A stretch of DNA of 64,000 nt, from the NCBI RefSeq assembly GCF_035084215.1, contig NC_090332.1, forward strand, positions 27,280,001 through 27,344,000. The letters are read 5' to 3'. The notes under the pieces are model-generated. The model searched no databases. It was not told the DNA's origin and saw only the letters and a program-made list of their open reading frames with translations. Each line of letters begins with the position of its first letter. The stretch's first letter is position 1. Shown here piece after piece: positions 1 to 63,925 of this stretch. Origin of the DNA: Heptranchias perlo. Taxonomy: Eukaryota. The translations under genes and the position numbers were made by a program.

Positions 1-2555
1 ACGTAACTGAAGTCCCTTATCCCTGGAATCATTCTAGTAAATTTCATCTGCACCCTCTCTAAGGCCTTCACATCTTTCCTATAGTGCGGTGCCCAGAACT
101 GGATACAATACTCCAGTTGTGGCCGAACCATTGTTTTATAAAGGTTCATCGTGACTTCCTTGCTTTTCTACACTATGCCTCTATTTATAAAGCCGAGGAT
201 CCCGAATGCTTTTTTAACACCTTTCTCAACCTGCCCTGCTACCTTCAACGATTTGTGTACATATACCCCCAGATCTCTCTGTTCCTGTACCCCTTTTAGA
301 ATTGTGCCCTTTAATTGATATTGCCTCTTCTCATTCTTCCTACCGAAATGTATCACTTCGCATTTTTCTGCATTAAATTTCATTTGCTACGTGTCCACCC
401 ATGCCACCAGCCTGTCTATATCCTCTTGAAGTCTATCACTATCCTCCTCACTTGTTCACTATACTATCAAGTTTTGTGTCATCTGCAAATTTTGAAATTG
501 AGCCCTGTACACCCAAGTCCAAGTCATTAATATATATCAAGAAAAGCAATGGTCCTAGTACCGACCCCTGCGGAACACCACTGCACACCTCCCTCCAGTC
601 CGGAAAACAACCGTTCACCACTACTCTGTTTCCTGTTAGTTAGCCAATTCTGTATCCTCTCTGCTACTGCCCCTTTTATTCCACGGGCTTCAATCTTGAT
701 GACAAGGCTATTATGTGGTACTTTATCAAACGCCTTTTGAAAGTCCATATACACCACATCAACTGCATTGCCCTCATCTACTCTCTCTGTTACCTCATCA
801 AAAAAATCTATCAAGTTGGTTAAACACGATTTGCCTTTAACAAATCCGTGCTGGCTTTCCCTAATCAATCAAGTGACTGCTAATTCTGTCCCGGATTATC
901 GTTTCTAAAAGTTTCTCCACCACCGAGGTTAAGCTGACTGGCCTGTAGTTGCTGGGTTTATCTTTACGCTCTTTTTTGAACAAGGGTGTAACATTTGCAG
1001 TTCTCCCATCCTCTGGCACCACCCCCGTATCGAAGGATGTTTGGAAGATTGTGGCCAGTACCTCCGCAATTTTGACTCTTATTACTCAGCAACCTAGGAT
1101 GCATCCCATCCGAACCAGGTGACTTACCTATTTTAAGTACAGCTAGCCTTTCTAGTACCTCCTCTATCAATTTTTAGCCCATCCAGTATCTCAACTACAT
1201 CTTTCTTTACTGAGACTCTGACAGCAGCATCTTCCTCGGTAAAGACAGATGCAAAGTATTCATGTAGTACCTCAGCCATGCCCTCTGCCTCCATGAGTAG
1301 ATCTCCTTTTTGGTCCCTAATCGGTCCCATCCCTCTTCTTACTACCCGTTTACTGTTTACATGCCTATAGAAGACTTTTGGATTCCCATTTATGTTGGCT
1401 GCCAGTCTGTTCTCATGCTCTCTCTTTGCCCCTCTTATATTCTTTTTCACTTCCCCTCTCAACTTTCTATATTCACCCTGGTTCTCACTTGTGTTATCAA
1501 CCTGACATCTGTCATACGCCCCTTTTTTCTGCTTCATCTTACTCTCTCTCTTGTCATCCAGGGAGCTCTGGCTTTTGTTGCCCTACCTTTCTCCCTCGTG
1601 GGAATGTACCTGGAATCTACCCGAACCATCTCCTCCTTAAAGGCCGCCCATTGTTCAATTACAGTTTTGCCTGCCAATCTTTGATTCAAGTTTACCCAGG
1701 CCAGATCTGTTCTCATCTCACTGAAATTGGCCCTCCTGCTATTGAGTGCTTTTATTTTAGAGTGGTCCATGACCTTTTCCATAGCTGTTCTAAACCTTAT
1801 GATACTACGATTGCTGTTCCCTAACTGTTCCCCCACTGACATTTGCTCCACATGGCCCGCCTCACTCCCCATAACCAAATCCATCAATGCTTCTTCCCTC
1901 GTTGGGTTGGAAATGTACGAGTCAAGAAAGTTCTCCTGAACACACTTCAAAAATTCCTCCCCCTTGTATTCTTACTATCCCAGTCTACATTAGGATAGCT
2001 GAAGTCCCTTGTTATCACTACTCTATGGCTTTTGCACCTCTCTGTAATTTCCCTGCAAATTTGCCCCTCTATATCCTTCCCACTAGTTGGTGGCCTATAG
2101 AATACACCCAGTCGTGTAATGGCACCTCTATTGTTTCTTAACTCTAACCAAATAGATTCTGTCCTTGACCCCTCCAGGACATCCTTTCTCTCGAGTACTG
2201 CAATATTCTCTTTAATACTGCCAAACCCCCTCCTTTCTTTCCTTCCCTATCTTTCCTGAACACCTTGTATCCAGGCATATTTAGTACCCAGTCCTGCCCT
2301 TTTTTTTGCCAGATCTGCATTATCGCCATGACATCATATTCCCATGTGGCTATTTGCGTCTGCAGCTCACCAACCTTATTTACCGCGCTTGCGCACATGC
2401 GCTGTAAACCAATCTTAGACTTTCTTGTACTCTCTTATCCACCGAATACTGTATTATTTCTTATTCTAGTGCTATCTTTCTCTCCCAATCCTTTGTGCAC
2501 CTTGTTTCTCCTTTCCAATGCTACATCCAGGTGCCCATCCCCCTGCCAAATTAGT
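1..2555 (-). mobile_element. Decayed CR1-type LINE ORF2 (endonuclease + reverse transcriptase), running off the window start; intronic in TRERF1
   Basis: Minus-strand ORF pieces QHGFVKGKSCLTNL...DFQKAFDKVPH (527-868), MKFNAEKCEVIHFGRKN (168-383), KSPGSDGMHPRLL, and APE-like GYKVFRKDREGKKGGG (2144-2398); multiple frameshifts. Confidence 0.93.
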
Positions 2556-20630: not shown

Positions 20631-23600
20631 TAGGAAGGTGTGAAGACATGAAGGGATTTCAACATGAGGATGAGAATTTTAAGATCAAGGCGTTCCTGGA
20701 CCGGGAGCCAATGTAGGGCAGCGAGCACAGGGGTGATGGGTGAACAAGACTTGATGCGAGTTAGGATACGTGCAGCAGAGTTTTGGATGAGCTCAAGTAT
20801 ATTGAGGGTGGAAGATGGGAGGCTGGCCAGGAGAGCATTGGAATAGTCAAGTCTAGAGGTAACAAAGGCATGAATGAGGGTTTCAGCAACAGATGAGCTG
20901 AGGCAGGGGCGGAGACGGAGACGTGCGATGTTACGGAGGTGGAATTAGACGGTCTTGGTGATGGAGCAGATATGTGGTTGGAAGCTCATCTCGGTCAAAT
21001 AGGATGCCAAGGTTGCAAATGGTCTGGTTCAGCCTCAGACAGTGGCCAGGGGAAGGGATGGAATCGGTGGCTAGTCAACGGAGTTTGTGGCGGGGACTGA
21101 AGACAATGGCTTCGGTCTTCCCAATATTTAGTCGGAGGAAATTTTTGTTCATCCAGTCGGACAAGCAGTGTGACAAATCAGGGACGGTGGAGGGGTCGAG
21201 GGAGGTAGTGGTGGTGAGGTAGAGCTGGGTGTCCTCAGCGTACGTGTGGAAACTGACATCGTGTTTTTGGATGATGTCACTGAGGGGCAGCATGTAGATG
21301 AGAAATAGGAGGGGGCCAAGGATAGATCCTTGGGGGACTCCAGAGGTAACGGTGTGGGAGTGGGAAGAGAAGCCATTGGAGGTGATTCTCTGGCTATGAC
21401 TGGATAGATAAGAATGGAAACAGACAAGCACTGTCCCACCCAGCTGGACGATGGAGGAGAGACACTGGAGGAGGATGGTGTGGTCAACTGTGTCAAAGGC
21501 TGAAGACAGGTCGAGAAAGATGAGGAGGGATAGTTTACCATGGTCACAGTCACATAGGATGTAATTTGGACTTTGATAAGGGTCTTTTCTGTACTGTGGC
21601 AGGGGCGGAAACCTAATTTGAGGGATTCAAACATGTGGGAAAGATGGGCGTGGATTTGGGAGGCGACAACACATTCAAGGACTTTGGAAAGGAAAGGGAG
21701 ATTTGCGAGGACAGATGAATCAAAGATGGGTTTTTTGAGGAGGGGAGTGATGACGCAGATTTAAAGGGGAGGAGGACAATACCCGAGGAGCGGGAACCGT
21801 TAACAATATCAGCTAACATGGGGGCCAGGAAGGGAAGTTGGGTGGCCAGCAGTTTGGTAGGAATAGGGTTGAGGGAGCAGGAGGTGGGTCTCATGGTCAA
21901 GATGAGCTCGTAGAGGGCATGAGGGGAGACAGGAGAGAAAGATGCAAACTCAGGGACAAGGGCAGGGGGGAGCCGTAGGGGAAGTTTGGCTTAGTGGGCT
22001 AGGGGAAGGAAGGGAAGCGGCAGAGGCAGCTGAATGGATAGTCTCAATCTTCGTGACAGAGTAGTCCATGAGCTTCTCGGACTTGTTGTCGGAGATGAGG
22101 GTGGAGGAGGCAGGGGAGAGGGGTTTAAGAAGACAGTGTGTAGTGGAGGAGAAGTCGGGGGTTATCTTTGCATTCCAGGATGACCTTGGAGTAGTGAGCG
22201 GTTTTGGCAGAGGAGAGCAGGATCCGATAGTGCTTTACATGGTCCAGCCAGATCTGGCGATGAGTGGCTGAACCAGTTGTTCACCATAAATGTTCAAGTC
22301 TGCGACCCTTGGATTTAAGGGAGAGGAGATAAGGGGCTGTACCGGGGGAATAACCAGGGTGAGGAAGAGTAATGGTTTTATTGGGGACAAGGGCATCAAA
22401 GGGAGGTGAGGGTGTGATTGAGCAGATCGGTAGCTGCAGAAATGTTGTGGTGAATGGAGGGCCAAAGGCTAGACAATTGGGAATTTGAAACTGCCGTTGT
22501 AAGTGACTTGGGGGAGAGTTTTTTCCAGGGGCGAACCCAGAAGGATGTCGGATTGGGAGGGGGAAGGGGGATGCGGGAGGAGAGGAATACAAAGAAGTGA
22601 TCAGAGATGGCCTTATCCGTGATTAAAACGATGGGAGTAGAGAGGCCACGTCAGATGGCAAGGTCGAGGGGGTGGCCATGAATATGGGTAGGGGAGTTTA
22701 TATGGAGGAAGAGATTAAGGGAGGATAGGGTGGCAGTGAATTCAGAGGAGAGAGAGCATGATGAGTTGAGATGGAGGTTGAAGTCGCTCGGTGCAGAGGC
22801 TGATGAAAGTAATGAAGATATTTCGATGAGAAACTTGGTGTGGTACTTGTGTGGGTGATAGAGAACGAGGATTTAAAAGGAGAGGTGAGAGGGGTGGAAC
22901 AAGGTGAGATGCTGAAAGGAGGAGGAGGTGCCAGAGGAGTAGAGAAATAGACCAAGGTGTGATTTGGTGATAAGGGCCACACCGCCACCGCGGCGGTCCG
23001 GGTAGGGCAAGTAGTGGAAGATATAGCCAGGCGGGGAGACTTTTTTTATTATTCGTTCATGGGATGTGGGTGTCGCTGGCGAGGCCGGCATTTATTGCCC
23101 ATCCCTAATTGCCCTTGAGAAGGTGGTGGTGAGCCGCCTTCTTGAACCGCTGCAGTCCGTGTGGTGAAGGTTCTCCCACAGTGCTGTTAAGGAGGGAGTT
23201 CCAGGATTTTGACCCAGCGACGATGATGGAACGGCGATATATTTCCAAGTCGGGATGGTGTGTGACTTGGAGGGGAACGTGCAGGTGGTGTTGTTCCCAT
23301 GTGCCTGCTGCCCTTGTCCTTCTAGGTGGTAGAGGTTGCGGGTTTGGGAGGTGCTGTCGAAGAAGCCTTGGCGAGTTGCTGCAGTGCATCCTGTATTTGG
23401 TACACGCTGCAGCCACGTTGTGCCGGTGGTGAAGGGAGTGAATGTTTAGGGTGGTGGATGGGGTGCCAATCAAGTGGGCTGCTTTGTCCTGGATGGTGTC
23501 GAGCTTCTTGAGTGCTGTTGGAGCTGCACTTATCCAAGCAAGTGGAGAGTATTCCATCACACACCTGACTTGTGCCTTGTAGATGGAGGAAAGGCTTTGG

Positions 23601-38317: not shown

Positions 38318-38426
38318 GTATGAACCGGCAAAGAAAATTGATAGAATGACACTTCTCAAATCTATTCACATTTTCAAGAAGCATAGAGTTCAGTATGAGA
38401 TGAGAACTCACTACAGATGTATAGAG
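38318..38426 (+). CDS. MRPS10: MRPS10 coding exon 5 (ends at a GC donor)
   Basis: tttttaag| acceptor; [36 protein letters not shown]|gcaagt; 109 nt, phase 2-0. Confidence 0.93.
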
Positions 38427-52444: not shown

Positions 52445-53902
52445 TAGAAAAATTGGTTAACAAGTTTATTGCATGAAAGGCCTAAAAAAAATCTTACGGG
52501 CAGGTTTTAAATTGCCCAACATTCAAATCACTACATTTTAATTACCCACAGATCTTGTTCCAACTGTTTGATCTATAAATTAAAATATTGATCTCTTCTA
52601 ATACTACCTTTTAATATTAATATATTACTGGAAGCCAGATATGTAGTGGGACATTCCCACATAAAATTTAGTTAACCATACCTTAACAAATTATTGTTTC
52701 TTCGTATATACAATTCCTGCTTGCAGATTTAAGACCCAAGGTAGGGCTAGCCTAAGGTTAACTTGAATTGCACACTGGTCAGAAGATAGAATTCAGCCCT
52801 CAGCACAAAGGGAACTAGCAAGGTTCGTTGTTAAACGAACTGCTTTAGTGGCAAGTTAGGTTGTGATCATCCTGGAAGATGGCAGGCTCTGTTCCAAAAT
52901 ACTTTTTTCCGTCGTTACGTTATGTTTCTTTGCCACTAACATGGCAACATTAGAAAGAATTACAGGTGTTCATTAAATTCTTTGTAGCAAATACTGATAA
53001 CACTTTCATTAGAATATTCATATGAATATATGGTAAAAGTTACTATACATTACTTCATTAAAATATTCAAATGAATGTAGTTAGATACATTAACTGTATA
53101 ATATTTTTGATTGTCAAACATAACATGTTACACTTCAATTATTGTTTAATAACAAAATCAAAAGGGTCAAGCTGCATTGTATATATATTTTGGGAAAATG
53201 AATTTAAAACCCTTTGAAATTCACAATTGTTTTAAATATTTTTTTTATTTCCTCAGGAGTTTTTCATTATGCTCTTTCTGGTTCAGAAAGTAACATTAAT
53301 CCACATTTACTTCAATTACATTATTTAGTGTTTCTAACAGTTCAAAACTTAAACAGTGTGATTTCTTTTCCACGTATGGAATCATCCAACCATTAACTAC
53401 TTTTACTTTACATTGTTACTTGCTGTCAGTATTTTCAAATTTAAAAACACTTCACTTCTATAAAATAAGGATGCACAGGCAATATTTCTAGACAAACAAC
53501 ATTATTAAAACAATCACAGCTACCTAAGCTAAAATAGTTGCACAAAAATATTTTCAAACTGCATAAAAGTAGACTGCATGATTCTTTACAAAGATAAATG
53601 CTTGACCTCAGCAGAGACATCTAGACATAAAACTGGTTATTTAATCATTCAAGATTAAATGTGTGCGTGAGGCACCGAAAGGAGTCCATACAGCTTATAT
53701 AAAACAATGCTTCGAAAGTCCAAGGAGTCACAGAAATATATATTTGTATGGCTTGTGCCATCTGGTGCATGAGGGCTGCTGCAAATATTGTTGACAAGTC
53801 TCAACTAAGTTTCTTTGCCAGCTTTACTATTTGCTGATCCTAGTCCGGCCATCTCAAAACTTTTTGTGTGCGCCCCACTATACAATTTAACAGTAAGTGG
53901 CT
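52445..53902 (-). other. Probable 3' UTR of the RGG-protein gene
   Basis: Repeat-free AU-rich stretch after the stop codon; minus-strand AATAAA at 52465-52470. Confidence 0.5.
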
Positions 53903-53984
53903 TTAAAAGCGTCTGCCACCTGGCGGTCCAGGCCATCTCTGGCCCCGTCCAGGTGGCGGCGGCGCACCAGGTCCATTGTGAAAG
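53903..53984 (-). CDS. RGG/Pro-rich protein, last coding exon
   Basis: ccttttacacag| acceptor; (G)FHNGPGAPPPPGRGQRWPGPPGGRRF*TAA; phase 2 start. Confidence 0.85.
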
Positions 53985-54283
53985 CTGTGTAAAAGGATAA
54001 AATCACAATTTTTTTTGTTTTATGGCGTACTTATCTTTATTAAAAAATTAAAGTTAGTTATAAAAATCTAACAGTTATACTACTTTTAATTATTTTATAC
54101 ACTAAATAGTCATTTGAAACATTCTTGACATGCAGATTTTTATCGGCTTCCAAAAAAATAACATTACTCACTACATTAAGGGCTAGTTACAAAAATTAGA
54201 TCCAAGCATTTTGTTTAATTTAGAGAAAAAGAATTTACTGCGTTTTGGGAAAATTATCCCACACAACCCTGAACTTCACTTAC

Positions 54284-54403
54284 CCTCTCGGAGGTGGGAA
54301 AACTCCTCTTCGCATGCCTCTACCTCGAATAAAGGGGGGTCTTCCTCTGAAGCGCATTGGTCCTGGAGGAGGAGGAAGATGAGGAGGGCCACCACCCCTA
54401 AAT
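54284..54403 (-). CDS. RGG/Pro-rich protein, coding exon 4
   Basis: gtcttgcag| acceptor and GG|gtaagt donor; 120 nt; (R)FRGGGPPHLPPPPGPMRFRGRPPFIRGRGMRRGVFPPPR. Confidence 0.87.
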
Positions 54404-55099
54404 CTGCAAGACAATTATCAAATGCTAAGACTGAAGAAAGCAAATCAAACACATTTTATTCAAACTAGGACCACGATGAAGGTGAGGTACTAAACTGCTG
54501 AACAAGGTTACATAGGGCTGGCAGGGACAGTTGGAGCCAGAACATGTAGAAAGTCCCAATCTCAGTTGAGGCCTTATAATTAAAATACTAAAATTTTCAT
54601 TATTTAGTAATAGAACAAATTGTATATGTTTTCTGCTAAAATCCCTTGCAAGCCATATACTTGCAATCACCTCACCAAAAAGTTCAAGGACATTGGTATT
54701 ATACATCACAACATTTTGTGCTCCCAACAACTGCTACAGAATGTTTACAAACACAACTAAAAACAGTAAAGGTTCAGTACCTGTTAGAACTGAAACTAGT
54801 GAATTTTCCAATCAATCAATATTCAAGTTAATGTAATCTATTAAATAGTGATATAACTCTACAAAGCTGAGCTTCTCTGTACAGTCGTTTCATGTCTTAC
54901 TAAAATATTCTAAATATACCCCATACTACCCAGTCCTTTATCCAAAAAATCTTTTCCAATAAAAAAAAGCATCTGTTGTCCTCACCAACAGCAAGCAATT
55001 AGCAGAAGGCATTTCATGGAACATCATTATTAACTGAGTATTCTGCAGAGACTATTATAAACATAAAACATTCTTATATATCCTGAATTATTCCCTCTT

Positions 55100-55712
55100 G
55101 TCCAGTCATATAGACTAATGGAATGTTGGCCTTTATCTCAAAGGTTTGGAATACAAAAATGAGGAAATGATGTTTCAGTTGTTCAGAGCTTTGTTCCAAC
55201 CACATATGCAGTGCTGCATTCATTTTTGGGCACTGAACCTTAGGAATGATATATTGGCTTTGAAGGGGGTGCAGCACACGATACCGGGCTTGAAAGGTTA
55301 AATTATGAGGACAGGTTGCAAAAATTTAGTTTGTATTCCCTTGAGTTTAGAAGATTAAGGGGGTAATCTAATTGAGCTAAAATTATAAAGGGATTTGATA
55401 GTTTCTTTGCTTCCAGCCTATGTCCTCTGGGGTGGAGGAATTCAGAATAAGGATGCATAGTCTTAAAATTAGAGCTAGGCCAATTAGGAGTAAAATCAGG
55501 AAGCACTTTTTCCACACAGAGAGCAGTGCAAATCTGGAATTCTCTCCTGCAAAAGGTTGTGGATGCTGGGTCAATTGAAATTCTCAAGACTGAGATCGAT
55601 AAGATTTTGTTAGGTAAGGCTATCAAGGGACATGGAGCAAGGGCAGGTAAATGGAATTGAGCAACATATCAGCCATGATCTAACTGAATGGTGAAACAGG
55701 CTCGAGAGGCTG
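55100..55712 (+). mobile_element. CR1-type 3' fragment
   Basis: Typical CR1 C-terminal and 3' UTR sequence, homologous to 41645-42200. Confidence 0.75.
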
Positions 55713-56387
55713 AAAGAGACAGAATGTTCTGAAGACAATGGGCTAAGTCTCCAGGTGATTGTTCCTGATCTGTGCTTGGTCTTGTCACGCAAATCAAATG
55801 GCGTGGTTTCAAAACAGATCTCGTCTTATTGATCAAATAGTATCATAAAGGTTCAATTTGCCATACACTTTATACAGTTTAAAGTAATTAATTTCAATCT
55901 TACAGCCCTGTACCAACTTATTTCGGAATCCAAGAGAGACTAGTAACACTTCTAAGCCAGTATGTCCAATATTTAGACAAAATATTCAACAAAACAAGGA
56001 TATAAGCAAACAAAACAAGGATATAAGCAAACAAAACAACGGATAAAGTTCTTTCAAGGATGTAGATGGTATGACTGCATACTAAGGTATTTTGCAACTC
56101 TGGGACTTGAGTACAAATTCACTGACTGAATAATCTACGTGAAAGGGTTTGGGTAGTCCATCCCATTCCAGTCAGAAACCTGTAAAGATAGCTGGTGTAA
56201 AAAATGGGAAAAATTCACAACCATAAATGTAGATACTCTTTTGAAGTTTGCATTGAGGCACATCACTGGAAGAGGGCAGTACAAGTATCCAGTTGTTCTG
56301 TAGCTAATCTAGTTGGATTTGATATCAATATTAAGTTCCCAAAATAAAACTTTTATTCCCCAGCACAGACATCTCTCATTGATTTGC

Positions 56388-56890
56388 CAATGTAGGTCAA
56401 CGAGCACAGGAGTGATGGGTGAGCAGGAGCTGGTGTAGGATAGGATTCGGGCTAGGTTTTGGATGAGCTAAAGTTTCTGGAAGCTAGAGGATAGGAAGCC
56501 GGCTAGGAGAGCATTGGAATATCGAGTCTAGAGGTGACAACAACATGGATGAGGGTTTTAGGAGCAGATTGGCAGGGGCGGAGATGGGCAATATTACAGA
56601 AGTGGAAGTAGGCAGTTTTTGTGATGGAGAGGGTATAGGGTCGGAAGCTCAGTTCGGGGTCAAATAGGATGCCGAGGTTGAGAACTGTCGGCTTCAACCC
56701 GAGACAGGGGCCGGGAAAGGGGATGGAATCGGTGGCGAGGGAACAGAGCTTGTGGCAGAGGTCAAAGACAATGGTCTTCCCAATGTTTAATTGGAGGAAA
56801 TTGCAGCTTATCTGGGACTGGACGTCAGACAAGTAGTCTGACCACACAGAGATAGTGGGGGGTCCAGAGAGGTGATGGAGAGGTAGATTT
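56388..56890 (-). mobile_element. L2 fragment
   Basis: NFLQLNIGKT...LNLGILFDPELSF...TLIHVVVTSRLD. Confidence 0.8.
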
Positions 56891-57504
56891 TAGAGTACTT
56901 TCAACCTGCTTGACTTGAGATTGAAATCTAGTTCCATTTGGATTTATGTGGCATTAATAGCATACTTTCATATTCTCTGTTCGTGACAGGGCCATGGCAA
57001 ACCAATCGATCGTTGCTGGTGCCTGACCGGACTTCAGTTTTGCCCTAAAGTTCATTTATCCACTATTTATGGGGTCACCTGTCTGCAATTTCATATTGCT
57101 AATATAGAAAATAGCCTTGCTGCTGGCACTTGTTTATGCCTAAAGAGTAAGCAACAATCAAGCTATTTTGATTTATGCAACTTATTTTGGATGGAGAGAT
57201 GTAATAATTCTAAAGATGCATGAATGGTGCCGCATTCAAAAGAAGAAACCCTTACAATTTAATCGTCTTTGTTGTGTGAAAATTAGAATTCAAAACGCCA
57301 AATTCTGTTAAATGACAGCTTGCAACATCCCATTTTCATCCATTTAATGTCTACCAGCTTTAAAAATTTCAATCCCTCTAGTAATGCAACTTATCAATAA
57401 CTGTTTATGTTGCAAATGTTCCAGTCTAGTCCTTGCACATGATCTGGTTCAGGGGTATCACCAATGTGTTTCCAATTCCCTATCAAATCCTATAAGTCCC
57501 TTAC

Positions 57505-57651
57505 CTTGGCGTGGGAAGGAAAGGCATATCTCCTCGTCCACCAAATGGACATTCCATCCCTCCCCTCATAAGATGTGGTCCATGCCTAGGCGGACCTCTT
57601 CGACCACGGGGATCTGGATATGGACGCATTCTAGTATTTCCCATACCACGT
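57505..57651 (-). CDS. RGG/Pro-rich protein, coding exon 3
   Basis: ctgtttttag| acceptor and AG|gtaagg donor; 147 nt; (R)RGMGNTRMRPYPDPRGRRGPPRHGPHLMRGGMECPFGGRGDMPFLPTP. Confidence 0.88.
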
Positions 57652-58488
57652 CTAAAAACAGAAAACAACATTTTTACTCTCAAATGAGAAAATACAATTC
57701 ATATAAAGTTAATATTTTTAACTGTGATCATAAAATCATTGTCAAAATTAAACCCTCTCAAACACTTTTTTGTGTGAATCAAAGTGAGGGATGTTAGCAC
57801 CAGGAAAATAGAACTTAATGTTCATGCACCCAGTGTCAGCAAACAATCAGTCAGATGCAGACTGAAGCTCCCTCTGTCCACCCCAACAAAATAATATAAA
57901 TTTAAGTATATTACATATTACAATGAAAATAATGGGATGTGTTAAAAGCTTTGGCAGTCAGGATAGAAGGAGTCAAAACATCCTGTAGATCCGGCACAAA
58001 CATGATGGGGCAAATGGCCTCCTTCTGTGCTGTAAGATTCTATTATTCACAATGACACAAACAATGGTTAACTGGGTAAATGCACCACACAGCTTGCCAA
58101 TGAGCCATACAGACCATGCTTGATCCCCGATCTGTGTCGAATTACCCTATCTCAAACACAGCTAGTTGATGGGCGTACATAATTAGCCTTTGTCCCTGGG
58201 TTAGGGTAGAGGGAAAAAAATATTGACTACTGCCCTCCTTTTCTGATCACCATCAATCGACGCTCTGCAAATACACATGTTCGGATTACTGGCTGAGGGC
58301 AAGGTTGACACTGGCTTTGATGGCCCCAAGTCAAATATGCTACCAACACATAACTTTCCATGTTTACCAATGAAGAATAATCACTTGGATAAGCCACTGC
58401 AGGGCTGCTGCTTCTGGAAGTGGACCCCAGATCAAGTGCCCATCTTAAGGATAGGGGGGGAGAAAATTGAGAAAGAAATGAGAAATAC

Positions 58489-58662
58489 CTTGCAGGTCCA
58501 AATCCATTAGCAGCTGCTTGTCCTCGCCCAAATCTGCCAGGTGGTCCACCTCTACTCACTGGTCCTTGGCCCTTAGGCCCTCCAAAAACACCTCTGCTGC
58601 CTCTTCCCCTGCCACCTCTGGCCATTCGCCCGCCTTTTCCTCTTCCTTTAGCTCCACGACCC
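58489..58662 (-). CDS. RGG/Pro-rich protein, coding exon 2
   Basis: tattttgaccag| acceptor and AG|gtattt donor; 174 nt; (R)GRGAKGRGKGGRMARGGRGRGSRG...NGFGPA. Confidence 0.85.
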
Positions 58663-59509
58663 CTGGTCAAAATAGTAGCATTACATTTTACTTCTCTTCA
58701 CTGCATGTTACATTTAGTATAAAAAGGGGCCATAATCCAAACAGCAGAAAATCTTCAGGGTCTTGGACTGTTATTAAGTCCCTCTAGTACAATTGCAAAA
58801 TTGAACTAATTAGTAAGTTATTTTCCCCAACTATCCATCTTGGCATAAGAAGTTAAAACATAAGAAGTATTTTCTCACATCCAAATGTAGTTATTTTCCT
58901 GATTACAGGTCTTAGAAATTGGCCAGCAAACAAATACACAGTTTTGGCCATTTAGTTTAGAAGAAACAAGTATGGAGCTTAAACACCAGCATGGACTCGT
59001 TGGGCTGAATGGCCTGTTTCTATGCTGTATATTCTATGTAATTCTATGTAAGTGATGGATTAATTTAAGGTTCACAGGTATTTTCCAGTAATCAAAATGT
59101 TAAATAAATATGAGACCAGAGACCTCACTTAAGTGAAGAAAGGTTTGTGAAATAAAGTTTTGTTTTCAAAATATCTTAGGATAGCTAACAGTTTGTGAAG
59201 CTCACTATAAATAGTGCTGAAATTTTGGGCTCATTGCATCCCACAAATTATGCATGTCCATGTTATTTCTGATTTGATGACATTTCCTCAAATATCATAA
59301 GCAGGTTTGCAACATCCCACCCACAAGAACGTTTTATATGAAGTACAACTAGTTCATGAACTAAACTCCCCAAACATGAATTTGTAAGTAATAAGAGTGA
59401 TTCCAAGGCAAACACCTGATTGAGTGGATGATATTAAACCAAAGGAGAGAGCTCACGGGGCTTATAATAGTCATTAGATGATATTATAGCCCTAAAATCC
59501 AAGTTTTTG

Positions 59510-59700
59510 AAATGTGCGCAATGCACTTCAGAGGCTGCAGCAATTCAGATTGAAGCCTTTACTGCAACCTCACTGGCCCCAAATATAGACACTAATGCTA
59601 TTATTGCACAACATCACTGGATCATCCAAGTTGATCATGGATTAATCCATAGGTCAACTTGTAGAATCAGTCACCTGGTTTCAGTTGATTACCTGCAAAT
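59510..59700 (-). ncRNA. Candidate intronic H/ACA-type RNA (family not recognised)
   Basis: Hairpin, then AUAGCA (59601-59596), hairpin, then ACA (59515-59513) followed by UUU; the 13-bp stem has two G-U pairs only on the minus strand. Confidence 0.45.
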
Positions 59701-59873
59701 TACATGATCCCTACGTGTTTTTATATAATTTCATTGCTCAACATACTTCTCAACCTGTTATGTGTCAAGGCTTTTTTTTGCCTTATTTTGAATGAACCTT
59801 TACCATTTTTCATTTTATCAACCCACTATTTACATCAAGATGTCCAAGACCATATATCAACACATTAGCTTAC

Positions 59874-59914
59874 CTAATTTCGTCACTGCCACCAGTCTGT
59901 TCATCATAATCCAT
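59874..59914 (-). CDS. RGG/Pro-rich protein, probable first coding exon
   Basis: gatttacag|ATG and AG|gtaagc; 41 nt, MDYDEQTGGSDEI, phase 2 matches the next exon; an upstream coding exon cannot be excluded. Confidence 0.7.
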
Positions 59915-59969
59915 CTGTAAATCAAAATTTAAAAAAAAATTCAAGTTGCTTTGCTTAGTACATCTCACT

Positions 59970-62170
59970 AAAGTCGATGAACCTCCAACTGAGCCTCATC
60001 ACAAACTTTGGCTCTTTCTAGCCTTATACCTGCAGTTATGAGAGCAGTGTCCCAGCTTCTTACCATCCAACTCCCCCCCCCCCCCCAACTTCCACTTTTC
60101 AGTTCCATGATCAGTAGTATCATCAGCTGAGCTCTATCCTCTGACTCAGTCCCACGTCTTTCAAAACCGCTATCAACCACCCCCTCAAAAAACCCTGATC
60201 TCAACCACTCCATTCTCTCCAGCTACTGCTGATCTCTAACTTTCCCTTTCTCTCTAAAGTCCTGGAACATATTGTTGCATTGCAACTATGCTCCCACCCT
60301 GACTACTTCCTGTTCAAAGCCCTTTATGTTTCCGTCCCACTCCGTACAGAAACCATACTTGTCAAAAGTCACCAACGTCCTATGTGATTGTGACCAATGC
60401 TGACTGCCCCATCTCAACCGCCCCACTACCTTCAACATTGTCAATCCACTCCATTTTCGTAGATTGTCTCTTCTCCACAGTTCATGCAGCACTGCTCTTT
60501 GCTGGTTACATTCCTAACTGTCATACCATAGACGTTACATTGCCTCAACTGGCTTCTCCTTACATGCCTGCAAAATTGTTTCTGGTGTATCCCAGTCTTG
60601 GCTCTCTCATCGTCATTTATAAGCTACCCTTTGGTAATATTATCCAGAAGCATGGGATCAGCTTTCACGCGTTTGCTGATGACACCCACTCTACCATGCC
60701 AACTCCACTTCATCGGCTGTCCCTGTCCCTAATTTCCTCCATTCCAGGATGGTAGAAGGCAACTTAGATGGACAGAGAATCTGGCAGAATACGGGCAGTT
60801 GAGTGTTAAACAAGCTGCATTAGATCAATGGTGGAGGATGGGAAGCAGCAAATAGACATTTGAAAAATGGAGTCTAAATGATAAGAGTTTCAGTGGTGCT
60901 GGGGCTGAGAGAGGGGCAGAGGAAGGCAATGTTGCAAAGGTGGAAATAAAGTGGTCTTAGTGATGGATAGGATGTGTCTTTGAAGCTCAGCTTTGAGTTG
61001 AATAGGACGCCGTGTAGTTGACACTTAATGCCCGTAGGGCAACTAGGGATGGGCAATGAATACTGCCTTTAATTGTCAGGTGTGGCTCAATGGTAGCAGT
61101 CATGCCCAAGTCAGAAATTTGTGGGTTCAAGCCCCACTCCACAGATTTGAGCACATAATGTACGCTGACACTTCAGTGTAGTACCAAGCAGTATTATTAT
61201 AAAGGAGGAGTTGCACTGTCAAAGGTGGCAACTTTCGGATGAGACATTAAACTAGGGCCTAGACTGCCCTCTCACATGGACATTCGAAAAGCAGGGGAGT
61301 TCATGTGGTGTCCTGGTCAACGTTTATCCCTCAACCAACATCATTAAAAAAACAAATTGCCTGGATAGTTATCTCATTTTTGTTTATGGGATCTTGCTGT
61401 GCACAAATTAGCTTCCACGTTTCCCTACATTACAGCAGTGGCTACAGTTCAAAAAGTGTTTAATTGGCCATAAAGTGCTTTGGGACATCGGGAAGTCTTG
61501 AAAGGCATTATATAAATGCAAATTCTTTATTTCAATGGAGGTTGGCGGCATGACTGCATCAAGTGCTGCAGAGAGATTGATGAAGTCAAGGAGGGATCAT
61601 GAATCATAGTCACAGACGATGTCATTGTGGTCTTGATCCTGTGAGCATGGCAGAAGCTGGACTGTGAGGATACAAACAAGCAGTTTTTGGAGAGTGGGGC
61701 ACAGAGCTGGGTGGCGACAATTTGTCTGATGACCTCAGACAGGAAGGGGAGGTTAGAGATGGGGCGGTATTTAAAGAGGATGGATGGTTTGAGGAGGAGT
61801 GTTTATGGCAGTGAAGAAAGGAACCGCTATGAGCAAATGGCACCATTAACAATGTCAGCTAACAAGGGGACCAGGAAAGGTGGCTGACTGTGGTTAGGAG
61901 TTAAGTGGGGAGGGAATTGAAGGAGCAGTAGGTGGTCTCGTGGAAGACATGAGTCTAGAGAGAGTGCAGAGGGGTGGTAATGGGAGAGAATCTATCGTCT
62001 AACAGGGTTTGAAGCTAGAGTGGGTATGGGACTGGAGAGGAAGGGGAGTTCATGTCAGAAGCAGCTGCATACCATTTTCAATCTGAGGCCAGAAATCCAC
62101 AAGCTCATCACATTTGGTATCTTGAGGTTAGGATGGAGCAAAAGAGTTTGAGGCAGTCAGTCAAGGAGAA
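59970..62170. mobile_element. Cluster of old L2 fragments in both orientations
   Basis: KHGISFHAFADDT (+, near 60670), GVLFNSKLSF (-, near 60990) and further minus-strand RT remnants at 61540-62170. Confidence 0.7.
61075..61530 (+). mobile_element. DeuSINE-like SINE, near full length
   Basis: TGGCTCAATGG (A box), GGTTCAAGCCC (B box), CTTTCGGATGAGACATTAAAC core, L2-like tail. Confidence 0.8.
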
Positions 62171-62177
62171 ATGGAGA

Positions 62178-62542
62178 CATAGATATAGAGTCATAGAGTT
62201 ATACAGCACGGAGAGAGGCCCTTCGACCCATCGTGTCCGCGCCGGCCATCAGCCCTGTCTACTCTAATCCCATATTCCAGCATTTGGTCCGTAGCCTTGT
62301 ATGCTATGGCATTTCAAGTGCTCATCGAAATGCTTCTTGAATGTTGTGAGGGTTCCTGCCTCCACAACCCTTTCAGGCAGTGAGTTCCAGACTCCAACCA
62401 CCCTCTGGGTGAAAAAGTTCTTTCTCAAATCCCCTCTAAACCTCCCGCCTTTTACCTTGAATCTATGTCCCCTTGTTATAGAACCCTCAACGAAGGGAAA
62501 AAGCTCCTTAGTATCCAACGAAGGGAAAAAGCTCCTTAGTAT
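62178..62542 (-). mobile_element. Young CR1-type 3' fragment with a 27-bp tandem duplication at its 5' truncation
   Basis: ELFPFVEGSITRGHRFKVKGGRFRGDLRKNFFTQRVV; CAACGAAGGGAAAAAGCTCCTTAGTAT twice (62488, 62516). Confidence 0.85.
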
Positions 62543-63479
62543 AATTGATTTTGAAAGATCACTGAAAAGTAGAACTTTTGATTTTATGGAATCACTTTTA
62601 AGTTTGTCTCATAAATATATAAAGCCACTTTATTATAAAGGTTTGCCAAACAAGTAAATGGAGTGAAAAACAAAACTTTGAGTGCTTTCTGAATCACTGC
62701 CTTGATTTACAGGAGCCGCTATCCAATTTTTCTCTTTGATCAATCTCTGGGTTTGAGGAAAGGGAGTGACAAATAAACGAAATCTAGGACCAGCATCACA
62801 GACCAATCCTGAGAAAGTCTAACTCTAGGTTATCGATAATAATCCACTTATGTTTAAAAGAAAACGTGAAAGGATTATTTGGTGTATACCAGATTGTAAA
62901 GCCAGGGATGTTGTATAAAGGACACATTGCGAGAGAAGGAATCAGGTTGAAGTCACTCGCGCAGTGAGGGGAAAAGAGAAACATAACTCACTGCTACTGT
63001 CCTGACACTTGTACAATTCAATAAAATAAACGGGACTGTTAAAGCACAGGTTCTTAATACAATCGCTCTGCTTTCTTGTTAAGATCATCAATTGGTGTAT
63101 TCTTCTAAATGAAGAGTATTTCACATTTATAGCGTATTATTTTACTGATATTTACAGAAGGCCCGTTTTTTTTTAAACATTGTCAAGCATAAGAAAAGTT
63201 TGTCTGAAACCCCTTCGGGATAGAGAACAGTCAGTGAGACCCCAACTCAAGACAAAGAACCCGGCTCAAACAACCTCAGCCGCGGCTAGAAATCCCCGCC
63301 CCATTCGGATAGCGGCGTAAAAAATGAGAAATGCGCGCCCGATTGCATACTTGCCTCCACTGTGCAGGTGGGATTAAAGATAAAAGGCGCGCTCTTTACT
63401 TTTTTTTAAAGCTCCCTCGAGCCAAACCACACGCGGTTTATAAACGGTTTTTAATTTTCCAAAGAAAATCCCGTGAAGC

Positions 63480-63815
63480 AAACTAACGGTAACCGCTGAC
63501 CACAAAATGGCGAGTTACATCGCGACTCAACCAAACTTCACTCTCCGAATTCTGGCGATCTGATTGATGGTTCGCTTTCCAATCGTTAACGCCTCCTCTC
63601 AAAGAAGGTCTTTGATTGGGCGCTGTCTACGTCAATCAGATTTCTCCGCCATCTCTTTAGGCAGAATTGATCAAGTTAGGGTTTAAGGGAAGCGAGTGAA
63701 CCAATCGAATGAGGCCATATTGGGAGGTTGCAGTAGGCTCGCCACCGGAAACTGTCCAATCGAATCCAAAGCAAGCGCGTGCTCTCAGCCAGTAGAAGTG
63801 TCGCGCGGAGCGGTA
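63480..63815. promoter_or_regulatory. Probable bidirectional CpG-rich promoter (UTP25 and the RGG-protein gene)
   Basis: CCAAT at 63579, 63701, 63756; ATTGG at 63615, 63719; YY1 AAAATGGCG at 63504-63512; ETS CCGGAA at 63745. Confidence 0.75.
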
Positions 63816-63925
63816 ATGGGGAAAAGGAAAAGTAGCGCAAGGTCTCGGGAGATTGGGAACAACTTAACCAAGAAACAGAAAAAACATCTCCGGGAGTTCG
63901 GGGAGGAACACCCCTTTCATGATAA
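63816..63925 (+). CDS. UTP25: UTP25/DIEXF (U3 snoRNA-associated protein 25) coding exon 1
   Basis: [36 protein letters not shown], then AA|gtgagt; [17 protein letters not shown] is the vertebrate UTP25 N-terminus. Confidence 0.93.

What the first reader, a model, noticed from the sequence alone, without database searches (positions are those of the whole stretch)
53903..59914. Unrecognised gene for a ~187-aa RGG/Pro-rich protein with a PY-NLS-like motif, head-to-head with UTP25
Seen: five exons with canonical splice sites join into one 564-nt ORF, MDYDEQTGGSDEIRGRGAKGRG...TRMRPYPDPRGRRGPP...PPPPGRGQRWPGPPGGRRF*. It has no recognisable folded domain, dense RG/RGG repeats with aromatic and Met spacers, and polyproline runs. 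Established: such tracts bind RNA, are PRMT substrates and drive condensates; R-X(2-5)-PY is the transportin-1 PY-NLS core. Inference: a stand-alone disordered nuclear or nucleolar RNA-binding protein co-regulated with a ribosome-biogenesis factor. I recognise no human orthologue; it may match an uncharacterised fish gene.
Basis: partly seen in the sequence, partly recalled or inferred. Interest (0 to 1): 0.8.

Follow-up and report, generated by a model that had tools for sequence, protein, structure and literature searches.

The report
Conserved domainless RG/Pro protein, switchable tail
This is a real but unstudied shark gene, shared with bony fish, amphibians, lizards and turtles and not found in mammals or birds, for a small unstructured protein whose almost unchanging tail can be kept or dropped by an ancient splicing choice.

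Summary
The gene is real. Five minus-strand exons give 564 nt and 187 aa. All four introns are spliced in contigs of 4 of 4 runs, and a sixth, non-coding 5' exon joins through a GC-AG intron. It is not unannotated: RefSeq holds the identical protein under a spurious "CPSF6" name, and it is the orthologue of the uncharacterised teleost gene si:ch211-51e12.7. The family has 82 clusters (cartilaginous and ray-finned fish, amphibians, lizards, turtles); none is from a mammal, bird, crocodilian or snake. I found no Pfam family, no fold and no paper on it. A distal last exon, shared from shark to lizards, removes it. The R-x-x-PY core is conserved (68 of 82), but the full hydrophobic PY-NLS pattern fits only 8 of 82. 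Head-to-head with UTP25 holds in this shark but may not in teleosts, so a nucleolar role is weakly supported. Best reading: a disordered nuclear RNP adaptor whose docking tail is switched by last-exon choice. The function is inferred, not shown.

The parts
63355..63536 (-). Non-coding first exon (5' end at least 63536); holds an ATG-TAA start-stop at 63520-63515 and a YY1-like motif at 63504
   Evidence: Joined to 59914 in contigs of X1, X5, X9; in-frame stop 18 codons upstream of the main ATG, strong Kozak context; motif scan
59915..63354 (-). First intron, 3,440 nt, GC-AG
   Evidence: Joint 59914/63355 with ends CT..GC in 3 of 4 runs; donor AG|GCAAGT
59874..59914 (-). Coding exon 1 (aa 1-14), short acidic N-terminus, least conserved part
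   Evidence: 10% identity to 22 bony-vertebrate rows
58489..58662 (-). Coding exon 2 (aa 15-72): basic RG arm (14 K/R, no acidic residue, 8 RG), ending in the N-G-F-G-P-x start of the PY block (58508-58489)
57505..57651 (-). Coding exon 3 (aa 73-121): R-M-R-P-Y core at 57632-57618; skipped in frame in some shark models
   Evidence: exon-skipped models P0008, P0015, P0017
54284..54403 (-). Coding exon 4 (aa 122-161): polyproline of variable length and a conserved G-P-M-x-F-R-G-R-P-P block
   Evidence: 24-nt in-frame insertion in runs X9 and X13
53985..54283 (-). Last intron, 299 nt; when retained, gives a 161-aa product without the tail
   Evidence: X1 contig runs unspliced across 53956-54312 at depth 23.8 against 33.3 for the spliced joint; translation
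53903..53984 (-). Coding exon 5 (aa 162-187) with the near-invariant tail (53950-53903) and stop
   Evidence: 92% identity over aa 170-187 to 22 bony-vertebrate rows; Trp exactly 9 residues before the C-terminus in 93 of 95 sequences that have it
53230..53902 (-). Proximal 3' UTR with AATAAA at 53249-53244; single copy in the genome
   Evidence: Aligned parts of the X5 and X13 contigs end at 53252 and 53280 (weak hint of a poly(A) site)
52001..52349 (-). Distal alternative last exon: acceptor at 52351-52350, adds G-V-T-stop (stop 52342-52340), gives the 163-aa tail-less isoform; continues left of 52001
   Evidence: Join equals RefSeq XP_067844956.1 = P0001; X1 contig starts at 52348 with 30 leading letters from elsewhere; same ending type in 25 of 74 tail-less family sequences
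63537..63815 (.). Shared CpG-rich promoter region, at most about 280 bp; five CCAAT boxes
   Evidence: CpG o/e 0.85-1.62 against 0.34 for the window; 5 CCAAT in 260 bp against 2.6 per kb
63816..63925 (+). First coding exon of the divergent neighbour, taken as UTP25
   Evidence: Open frame and GT donor; UTP25 domains downstream on the same strand; link between them inferred

Best explanation
SHOWN: a single-copy, spliced gene, orthologous to teleost si:ch211-51e12.7 and at least as old as jawed vertebrates. It encodes a 20-kDa, pI about 12, unfolded protein built of phase-2 exons: an RG arm, an NGF..RxxPY block, Pro-rich spacers and a near-invariant C-terminal tail. Annotated isoforms from shark to lizards drop the tail through the same distal last exon, or through last-intron retention. 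INFERRED: the protein enters the nucleus through transportin-1 (RG arm plus PY block). It partitions into RNA-rich nuclear assemblies through methylatable RG and aromatic residues. It uses the tail as a short linear motif, probably read together with the free C-terminus, to dock on a conserved folded subunit of the pre-mRNA splicing or 3'-end machinery. Choosing the proximal exon and poly(A) site against the distal exon switches docking on or off, plausibly as feedback on its own RNA. Confidence: gene and orthology about 0.97; tail is a functional binding or targeting motif about 0.85; mainly nuclear about 0.7; the whole mechanism about 0.5.
For: Splicing in 4 of 4 runs. 82 clusters found with a tetrapod profile, and a 26-protein tree that follows the major groups (5 label changes, the least possible; 0 of 200 shuffles as low). 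Conservation is blocky: tail 92%, NG..PY block 72%, exon 4/5 block 59%, against 10-35% elsewhere. The tail's Trp lies 9 residues from the end in 93 of 95 sequences, and the last residue is F or Y in 85 of 86. R/K/H-x2-5-PY sits at the homologous place in 68 of 82; anywhere in the protein it is found in 73 of 82 against 24 in shuffles. This protein matches the hydrophobic PY-NLS pattern of PMC2408616 at residues 68-83 when Pro counts as hydrophobic (3.4% of shuffles). The [GR]-[VI]-[TRAI]-stop ending occurs in 25 of 74 tail-less sequences, from shark, eel, frogs, lizards and turtles. Val at that place cannot come from read-through into a GT intron at a phase-2 junction, so it implies a shared distal acceptor. 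The last exon with its 3' UTR differs less than coding exons 2-4 in three other-species runs: 0.8/2.9/1.9% against 3.6/6.1/6.1%, Fisher p about 0.001, 0.001, 0.00003. Precedent for removing a C-terminal signal by an alternative 3' end: SFPQ (PMC12372870, passages).
Against: No partner, location or RNA binding was measured. Only 8 of 82 clusters fit the hydrophobic PY-NLS pattern with its 7-12 residue linker (40 of 82 if the linker may be 4); the basic pattern fits 2 of 82, below the 6.4 of shuffles. Leatherback turtle and one teleost lack the PY. The gene name is absent from the supplements of a zebrafish embryo mRNA-interactome study whose table does use ch211 names (one file not searchable; an Arg-rich protein may give few usable peptides). 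The tail matched nothing in the PDB, Pfam or named Atlas clusters, so its partner class is a guess. Short isoforms outside this shark rest on automated gene models. The UTR comparison ignores gaps (57 gap letters in X9, 15 in X13), leaves out an X5 piece at 52001-52230 (10 of 230 different), and had no control gene.
Confidence: 0.5

Rival explanations
1. The tail is itself a targeting or stability signal (import, retention or C-terminal degron), not a docking site for an RNA-processing complex; the last-exon switch moves or destroys the protein, as the alternative SFPQ C-terminus does.
For: Basic residues followed by a terminal aromatic at a fixed distance from the end. SFPQ loses a C-terminal NLS in its alternative isoform (PMC12372870, passages). 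17 of 74 tail-less sequences end in G, GG or GT; G-ending C-degrons are recalled, not tested.
Against: A separate conserved PY block already offers an import signal. Fifteen near-invariant positions with Trp, Gly and Pro are more than a classical NLS needs (inference).
Confidence: 0.18
2. A nucleolar ribosome-biogenesis cofactor (GAR-like), co-expressed with UTP25 from one bidirectional promoter.
For: 5' ends within about 280 bp, CpG-rich, five CCAAT boxes; very basic RG arm; MRPS10, another ribosome gene, is the other neighbour.
Against: Only 4 RGG. Three teleost models fuse a bHLH gene directly upstream, and its best shark match is on contig C5, not C8, so the pairing may not be conserved. 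No snoRNA or other Rfam match in the window. Divergent housekeeping pairs often have unrelated functions (general knowledge).
Confidence: 0.14
3. A cytoplasmic scaffold: RNP-granule or translation regulator, or a ligand platform for SH3, WW, EVH1, GYF or profilin domains through its polyproline runs.
For: 35 prolines, F-P-P-P-P in several sharks, P-P-P-G repeats; RG-rich disordered proteins also populate cytoplasmic granules (general knowledge).
Against: Polyproline length and position vary freely (24-nt indel; 27% identity in the middle region), while the PY block is conserved. Names such as 'formin-like' and 'WAS-like' are automatic and inconsistent among close orthologues.
Confidence: 0.14
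4. A by-product: an antisense transcript of the UTP25 promoter with a chance low-complexity frame, or family hits that reflect composition alone.
For: Low complexity; divergent promoter transcripts are common.
Against: In-frame indels only, an invariant tail found in 0 shuffles, a tree that follows the species groups, and no unrelated low-complexity proteins named among 82 hits at E up to 10.
Confidence: 0.02

Closest known systems
si:ch211-51e12.7 (uncharacterised teleost gene) and its unnamed RefSeq orthologues
   Same: Same length class, same four conserved blocks, same terminal tail, same tail-less short isoforms; members group by lineage in one tree.
   Different: Nothing in kind. The shark form has a shorter acidic N-terminus and a two-residue longer PY linker; its upstream neighbour is UTP25, whereas three teleost models show a bHLH gene.
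PY-NLS cargoes of transportin-1 (hnRNP A1 type, hydrophobic subclass)
   Same: Disordered, basic, R-x2-PY core, upstream F-G-P-x motif resembling the FGPM of hnRNP A1 (PMC2408616, passages and one section).
   Different: No RRM or other folded domain; the signal is central, not terminal; the linker is 2-3 residues shorter than the published pattern in most bony-vertebrate orthologues.
SFPQ alternative last-exon switch
   Same: An alternative 3' end removes a short conserved extreme C-terminus (PMC12372870, passages).
   Different: No DBHS domains; no sequence homology shown; the tail's role here is untested.
CPSF6, SmB/B', U1-C, SF3B4, fibrillarin, WASP, formin, K10 (automatic names given to orthologues)
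   Same: Pro/Gly/Arg-rich composition only.
   Different: No RRM, Sm, zinc-finger, methyltransferase, WH1 or FH2 domain: 0 Pfam families at E up to 1 for this protein, and none passing among 28 aligned members.
CHTOP and PRR3 (small RG- or Pro-rich nuclear proteins; recalled)
   Same: Small, largely disordered, RG- or Pro-rich; PRR3 is recalled as lying beside GNL1.
   Different: Neither name appears among the hits; their known domains are not found here. Direct comparison was not possible.

Membership tests
si:ch211-51e12.7 orthologous family | Significant profile match to proteins carrying that gene name | tested here: met
   P0026 E 4e-10 and P0036 E 4e-7 with a shark-only profile
si:ch211-51e12.7 orthologous family | Shared ordered motifs and terminal tail | tested here: met
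   Alignment A3; block identities
si:ch211-51e12.7 orthologous family | Single copy and a tree that follows species groups | tested here: met
   One locus in G000 (two weak hits read as noise); tree (amphibians not one clade, with a long caecilian branch)
si:ch211-51e12.7 orthologous family | Conserved gene neighbourhood | tested here: inconclusive
   Shark: MRPS10 and UTP25. Teleost fused models suggest a bHLH neighbour. No other vertebrate genome could be read.
PY-NLS (transportin-1 cargo) | Structurally disordered and overall basic | tested here: met
   pTM 0.12, mean pLDDT 54.9; pI about 12
PY-NLS (transportin-1 cargo) | C-terminal R/K/H-x2-5-PY core | tested here: met
   Residues 79-83; 68 of 82 at the homologous place
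PY-NLS (transportin-1 cargo) | Hydrophobic N-terminal motif with a 7-12 residue linker | tested here: inconclusive
   Met in this protein if Pro counts as hydrophobic; 8 of 82 in the family against 4.0 shuffled; 28 of 82 with linker from 5, 40 of 82 from 4
PY-NLS (transportin-1 cargo) | Basic-subclass pattern | tested here: not met
   No match in this protein; 2 of 82 against 6.4 shuffled
PY-NLS (transportin-1 cargo) | RanGTP-sensitive binding to transportin-1 | not testable with these tools
   Needs a binding assay
RG/RGG-motif RNA-binding proteins | Clustered RG/RGG repeats in a disordered region | tested here: met
   21 RG, 4 RGG
RG/RGG-motif RNA-binding proteins | RNA binding and arginine methylation | tested here: inconclusive
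   Name not found in one zebrafish interactome supplement; methylation not testable
CPSF6 / SmB / fibrillarin / WASP / formin (RefSeq auto-names) | The family's folded domain | tested here: not met
   0 Pfam families; no secondary structure reported for the model; only a chance PDB hit, E 4.2

The most novel reading that the evidence does not exclude
An undescribed jawed-vertebrate regulator made only of disordered sequence. Its 15-residue Trp-centred C-terminus is a new short linear motif for a core nuclear RNA-processing factor, and an alternative last exon kept since the shark-lizard split toggles it, under feedback. Mammals (and perhaps birds, crocodilians and snakes) lost it; in mammals the loss may coincide with a chromosome break, since it sits between MRPS10 and UTP25, which are recalled to lie on different human chromosomes (6p21.1 and 1q32.2).
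Probability: 0.25. Interest if true: 0.72.

Novelty: new member of a known kind. Interest (0 to 1): 0.42.

Why it matters
The gene is already modelled in RefSeq, so its existence is not news. What appears undescribed in the sources searched is the family itself. It is hidden under more than a dozen wrong automatic names, has no Pfam entry and returned no paper. Its near-invariant terminal peptide gives a ready bait for finding a partner that must itself be conserved across jawed vertebrates, and the partner may exist in humans even if the ligand does not. The shared tail-less exon offers a clean test of an ancient last-exon switch in zebrafish or Xenopus. If the loss in mammals is real, it is a case of an RNA regulator lost in our lineage.

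Tried and rejected
Pfam on five sharks and on 28 aligned members: nothing passing. PDB by profile: one chance hit. Rfam over the window: 0. ESM Atlas: top cluster of 122 members, all eukaryote and commonest Chordata, no Pfam family, probably the protein's own; tail against named clusters gave no usable hit. The structure model was too poor for a fold search, so none was run. Paralogues in G000: two weak hits (C46 E 0.04, C7 E 5.6) contain stops and lack the motifs. A longer N-terminus from the 5' exon is rejected: in-frame stop upstream, and the only ATG there is followed by a stop. dN/dS could not be computed, because one search lists only some differences; of the 7 changed codons it allowed scoring for X5, 3 were silent and 4 changed the residue, which is uninformative. 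No run is on record as RNA; this is no evidence either way. Literature: 0 papers for 'ch211-51e12.7' and '51e12.7'. For '51e12' or two family peptides, 32 papers; the 20 listed look unrelated by title and hold neither peptide; 12 were not seen. 0 papers for the two synteny searches; listings gave nothing on this gene. The medaka bidirectional-promoter supplement held none of utp25, diexf or 51e12, with no control for its naming. The RBP2GO paper's supplement was unreadable and may bear on RNA binding. Earlier scan notes: none. IRF6 as a neighbour: no IRF match on C8 among 16. A 3' UTR overlap with MRPS10 is unlikely as the cause of UTR conservation: its last coding exon ends near 40660. No complex prediction was sent, as no justified partner sequence was in hand.


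Full report
Observation. All introns are GT-AG, all junctions are phase 2, and the join is 564 nt, 187 aa. The protein is G50, R35, P35, with 21 RG and 4 RGG. The window lies on contig C8 of a 3.25-Gb genome; exon 2 and both tested parts of the 3' UTR are single copy. An identical protein is in RefSeq as XP_067844955.1, labelled Heptranchias perlo and auto-named 'CPSF6 isoform X1'.

Expression. Four of 16 listed runs were laid, one from each study and organism label; their type is the tool's guess. All four introns are skipped at the predicted places in 4 of 4 runs. In 3 of 4, a further exon at 63355-63536 joins the ATG exon across a 3,440-nt GC-AG intron. That exon is non-coding: it has an in-frame stop 18 codons upstream, and its one ATG is followed by TAA. 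X1's pieces show no differences from the window, so X1 may not be independent of the annotation; the other three runs diverge. Two runs carry a 24-nt in-frame insertion in exon 4.

Family. A search with exon 3 alone found six shark clusters. A seven-shark profile found 35 clusters and 7 among 50% representatives. A 12-sequence tetrapod profile found 82 at E up to 10: by their labels 8 cartilaginous fish, 40 ray-finned fish, 13 amphibians, 11 lizards, 7 turtles and 3 unnamed. Several carry the name si:ch211-51e12.7; the rest carry inconsistent automatic names (CPSF6, SmB, U1-C, SF3B4, fibrillarin, WASP, formin, collagen, K10). A tree of 26 chosen full-length members groups sharks, teleosts, lizards and turtles each as one side of a well-supported branch; the amphibians split around a long caecilian branch. 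None of the 79 named clusters is from a mammal, bird, crocodilian, snake, lamprey or invertebrate. The collection does hold mammals and a snake (no bird appeared in that control). Only 8,000 candidates were scored, and rays, carpet sharks, zebrafish and Xenopus are also missing among the representatives, so loss is likely (about 0.75 for mammals) but unproven.

Anatomy. AlphaFold2 with 28 sequences gave pTM 0.12, no residue at pLDDT 90 or more and no reported secondary structure. Pfam, PDB and Rfam gave nothing. Identity to 22 bony-vertebrate rows is blocky: 10% in exon 1, 35% in the RG arm, 72% in the NG..PY block, 27% in the middle, 59% in the exon 4/5 block and 92% in the last 18 residues. 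Among 169 family sequences (representatives plus listed members, so not independent), 95 have the Trp motif, and in 93 the Trp is 9 residues from the end. With a stricter pattern, the last residue is F or Y in 85 of 86. A motif fixed to the terminus in an otherwise drifting disordered protein points to recognition by a folded partner (inference).

PY-NLS. It is conserved at the same place in 68 of 82 clusters; most of the 14 misses are partial or exon-skipped models, and some are true changes. PMC2408616 (passages and section 8 read) gives the hydrophobic and basic patterns and names FGPM as the hnRNP A1 motif. This protein fits the hydrophobic pattern at residues 68-83 if Pro counts as hydrophobic; without Pro it does not. 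Only 8 of 82 fit with the 7-12 linker, because bony vertebrates have a shorter one. The basic pattern is not met. It works like a PY-NLS by anatomy; membership needs a binding test.

The switch. RefSeq's second isoform (163 aa) equals exon 4 joined to an acceptor at 52349, ending G-V-T-stop; retaining intron 4 gives 161 aa. Run X1 has a contig that starts at 52348 with 30 letters from elsewhere, and another that crosses intron 4 unspliced. Of 74 tail-less family sequences, 25 end in [GR]-[VI]-[TRAI] (shark, eel, three frogs, lizards, turtles), 17 end in G, GG or GT, and the rest vary. At a phase-2 junction a GT intron cannot supply Val as the next whole codon, so these endings imply a shared distal exon (inference from automated models). 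The proximal AATAAA at 53249 lies 5' of the distal acceptor, which makes this an alternative last-exon choice. The last exon with its UTR differs less from three other species than coding exons 2-4 do (6 of 733, 57 of 1,984, 21 of 1,133 against 16, 27, 27 of 440), and two intronic pieces differ by 10-12%. Gaps were not counted, one X5 piece (10 of 230) was left out, and no control gene was laid. SFPQ is a precedent for dropping an extreme C-terminal signal this way (PMC12372870, passages), without implying homology.

Neighbourhood. UTP25 domains lie 12-24 kb right of the window on the + strand. The two 5' ends are at most about 280 bp apart, in a CpG-rich stretch with five CCAAT boxes. On the other side lie MRPS10 (window 38319 to about 40660, +) and an ELM2 gene related to MIDEAS (TRERF1 by recall). 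Three teleost models fuse a bHLH frame directly upstream of the orthologue, and its best shark match is on C5, so the UTP25 pairing may be lineage-specific. From recall only, TRERF1-MRPS10 is on human 6p21.1 and UTP25 is beside IRF6 on 1q32.2, which would put this gene at a mammalian breakpoint. No IRF match lies on C8, and two paper searches found nothing on this.

Mechanism. Best reading (0.5): a transportin-imported, RG-driven nuclear RNP adaptor whose tail docks on a conserved RNA-processing factor, switched by last-exon choice. Rivals: the tail as a targeting or stability signal (0.18), a nucleolar partner of UTP25 (0.14), a cytoplasmic scaffold (0.14), a by-product (0.02). Gene structure, orthology and motif conservation are shown; location, RNA binding, partner and feedback are inferred.

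Novelty. The gene model is known. The family returned no paper in the searches; supplements are not covered by those searches, most subscription journals are missing, and the gene name was absent from the readable supplements of PMC5495070. It is a new member of a known kind of protein, with an unexplained invariant tail and an old isoform switch. Interest 0.42.

Noticed in passing
window 38319-38423 and about 40400-40660, +: Last exons of MRPS10 (mitochondrial ribosomal protein S10), tail-to-tail with the gene.
   Followed up: partly
L017:3176-3586 + and G000:C8:27246794-27246925: ELM2-domain gene related to MIDEAS, probably TRERF1, upstream of MRPS10.
   Followed up: partly
window 52274-52268, minus strand: A good-looking donor (CAG|GTGAGA) 66 nt after the distal stop codon; if used, the short isoform could be an NMD target. 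The X1 contig reads through it; no joint seen among those shown.
   Followed up: partly
window 63520-63515, minus strand: ATG-TAA start-stop in the 5' exon, next to a YY1-like motif.
   Followed up: no
proteins P0024, P0045, P0118: Three teleost gene models fuse a mesogenin-like bHLH frame (name recalled) to the orthologue, probably joined neighbours.
   Followed up: partly
proteins P0025, P0030, P0104, P0097 cluster: Turtle orthologues show changes in otherwise fixed motifs (W-L-G in loggerhead, no PY in leatherback), which may mean relaxed selection in that lineage.
   Followed up: no
window 527-868, 1947-2246, 21075-21626, 42136-42501, 51067-51426 (all minus): LINE-type reverse transcriptase or endonuclease fragments; deep cover at 55.2-56.8, 58.0-58.4, 58.8-59.2 and 60.8-62.8 kb marks further repeats inside the gene's introns.
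   Followed up: no
L014:6937-9888 +: A 984-aa open frame left of the window, amid LINE-like sequence; not identified.
   Followed up: no
L007, L008 and L006: Three single-exon ARF6-like genes on C10, C8 and C44, seen while building the taxon control.
   Followed up: no
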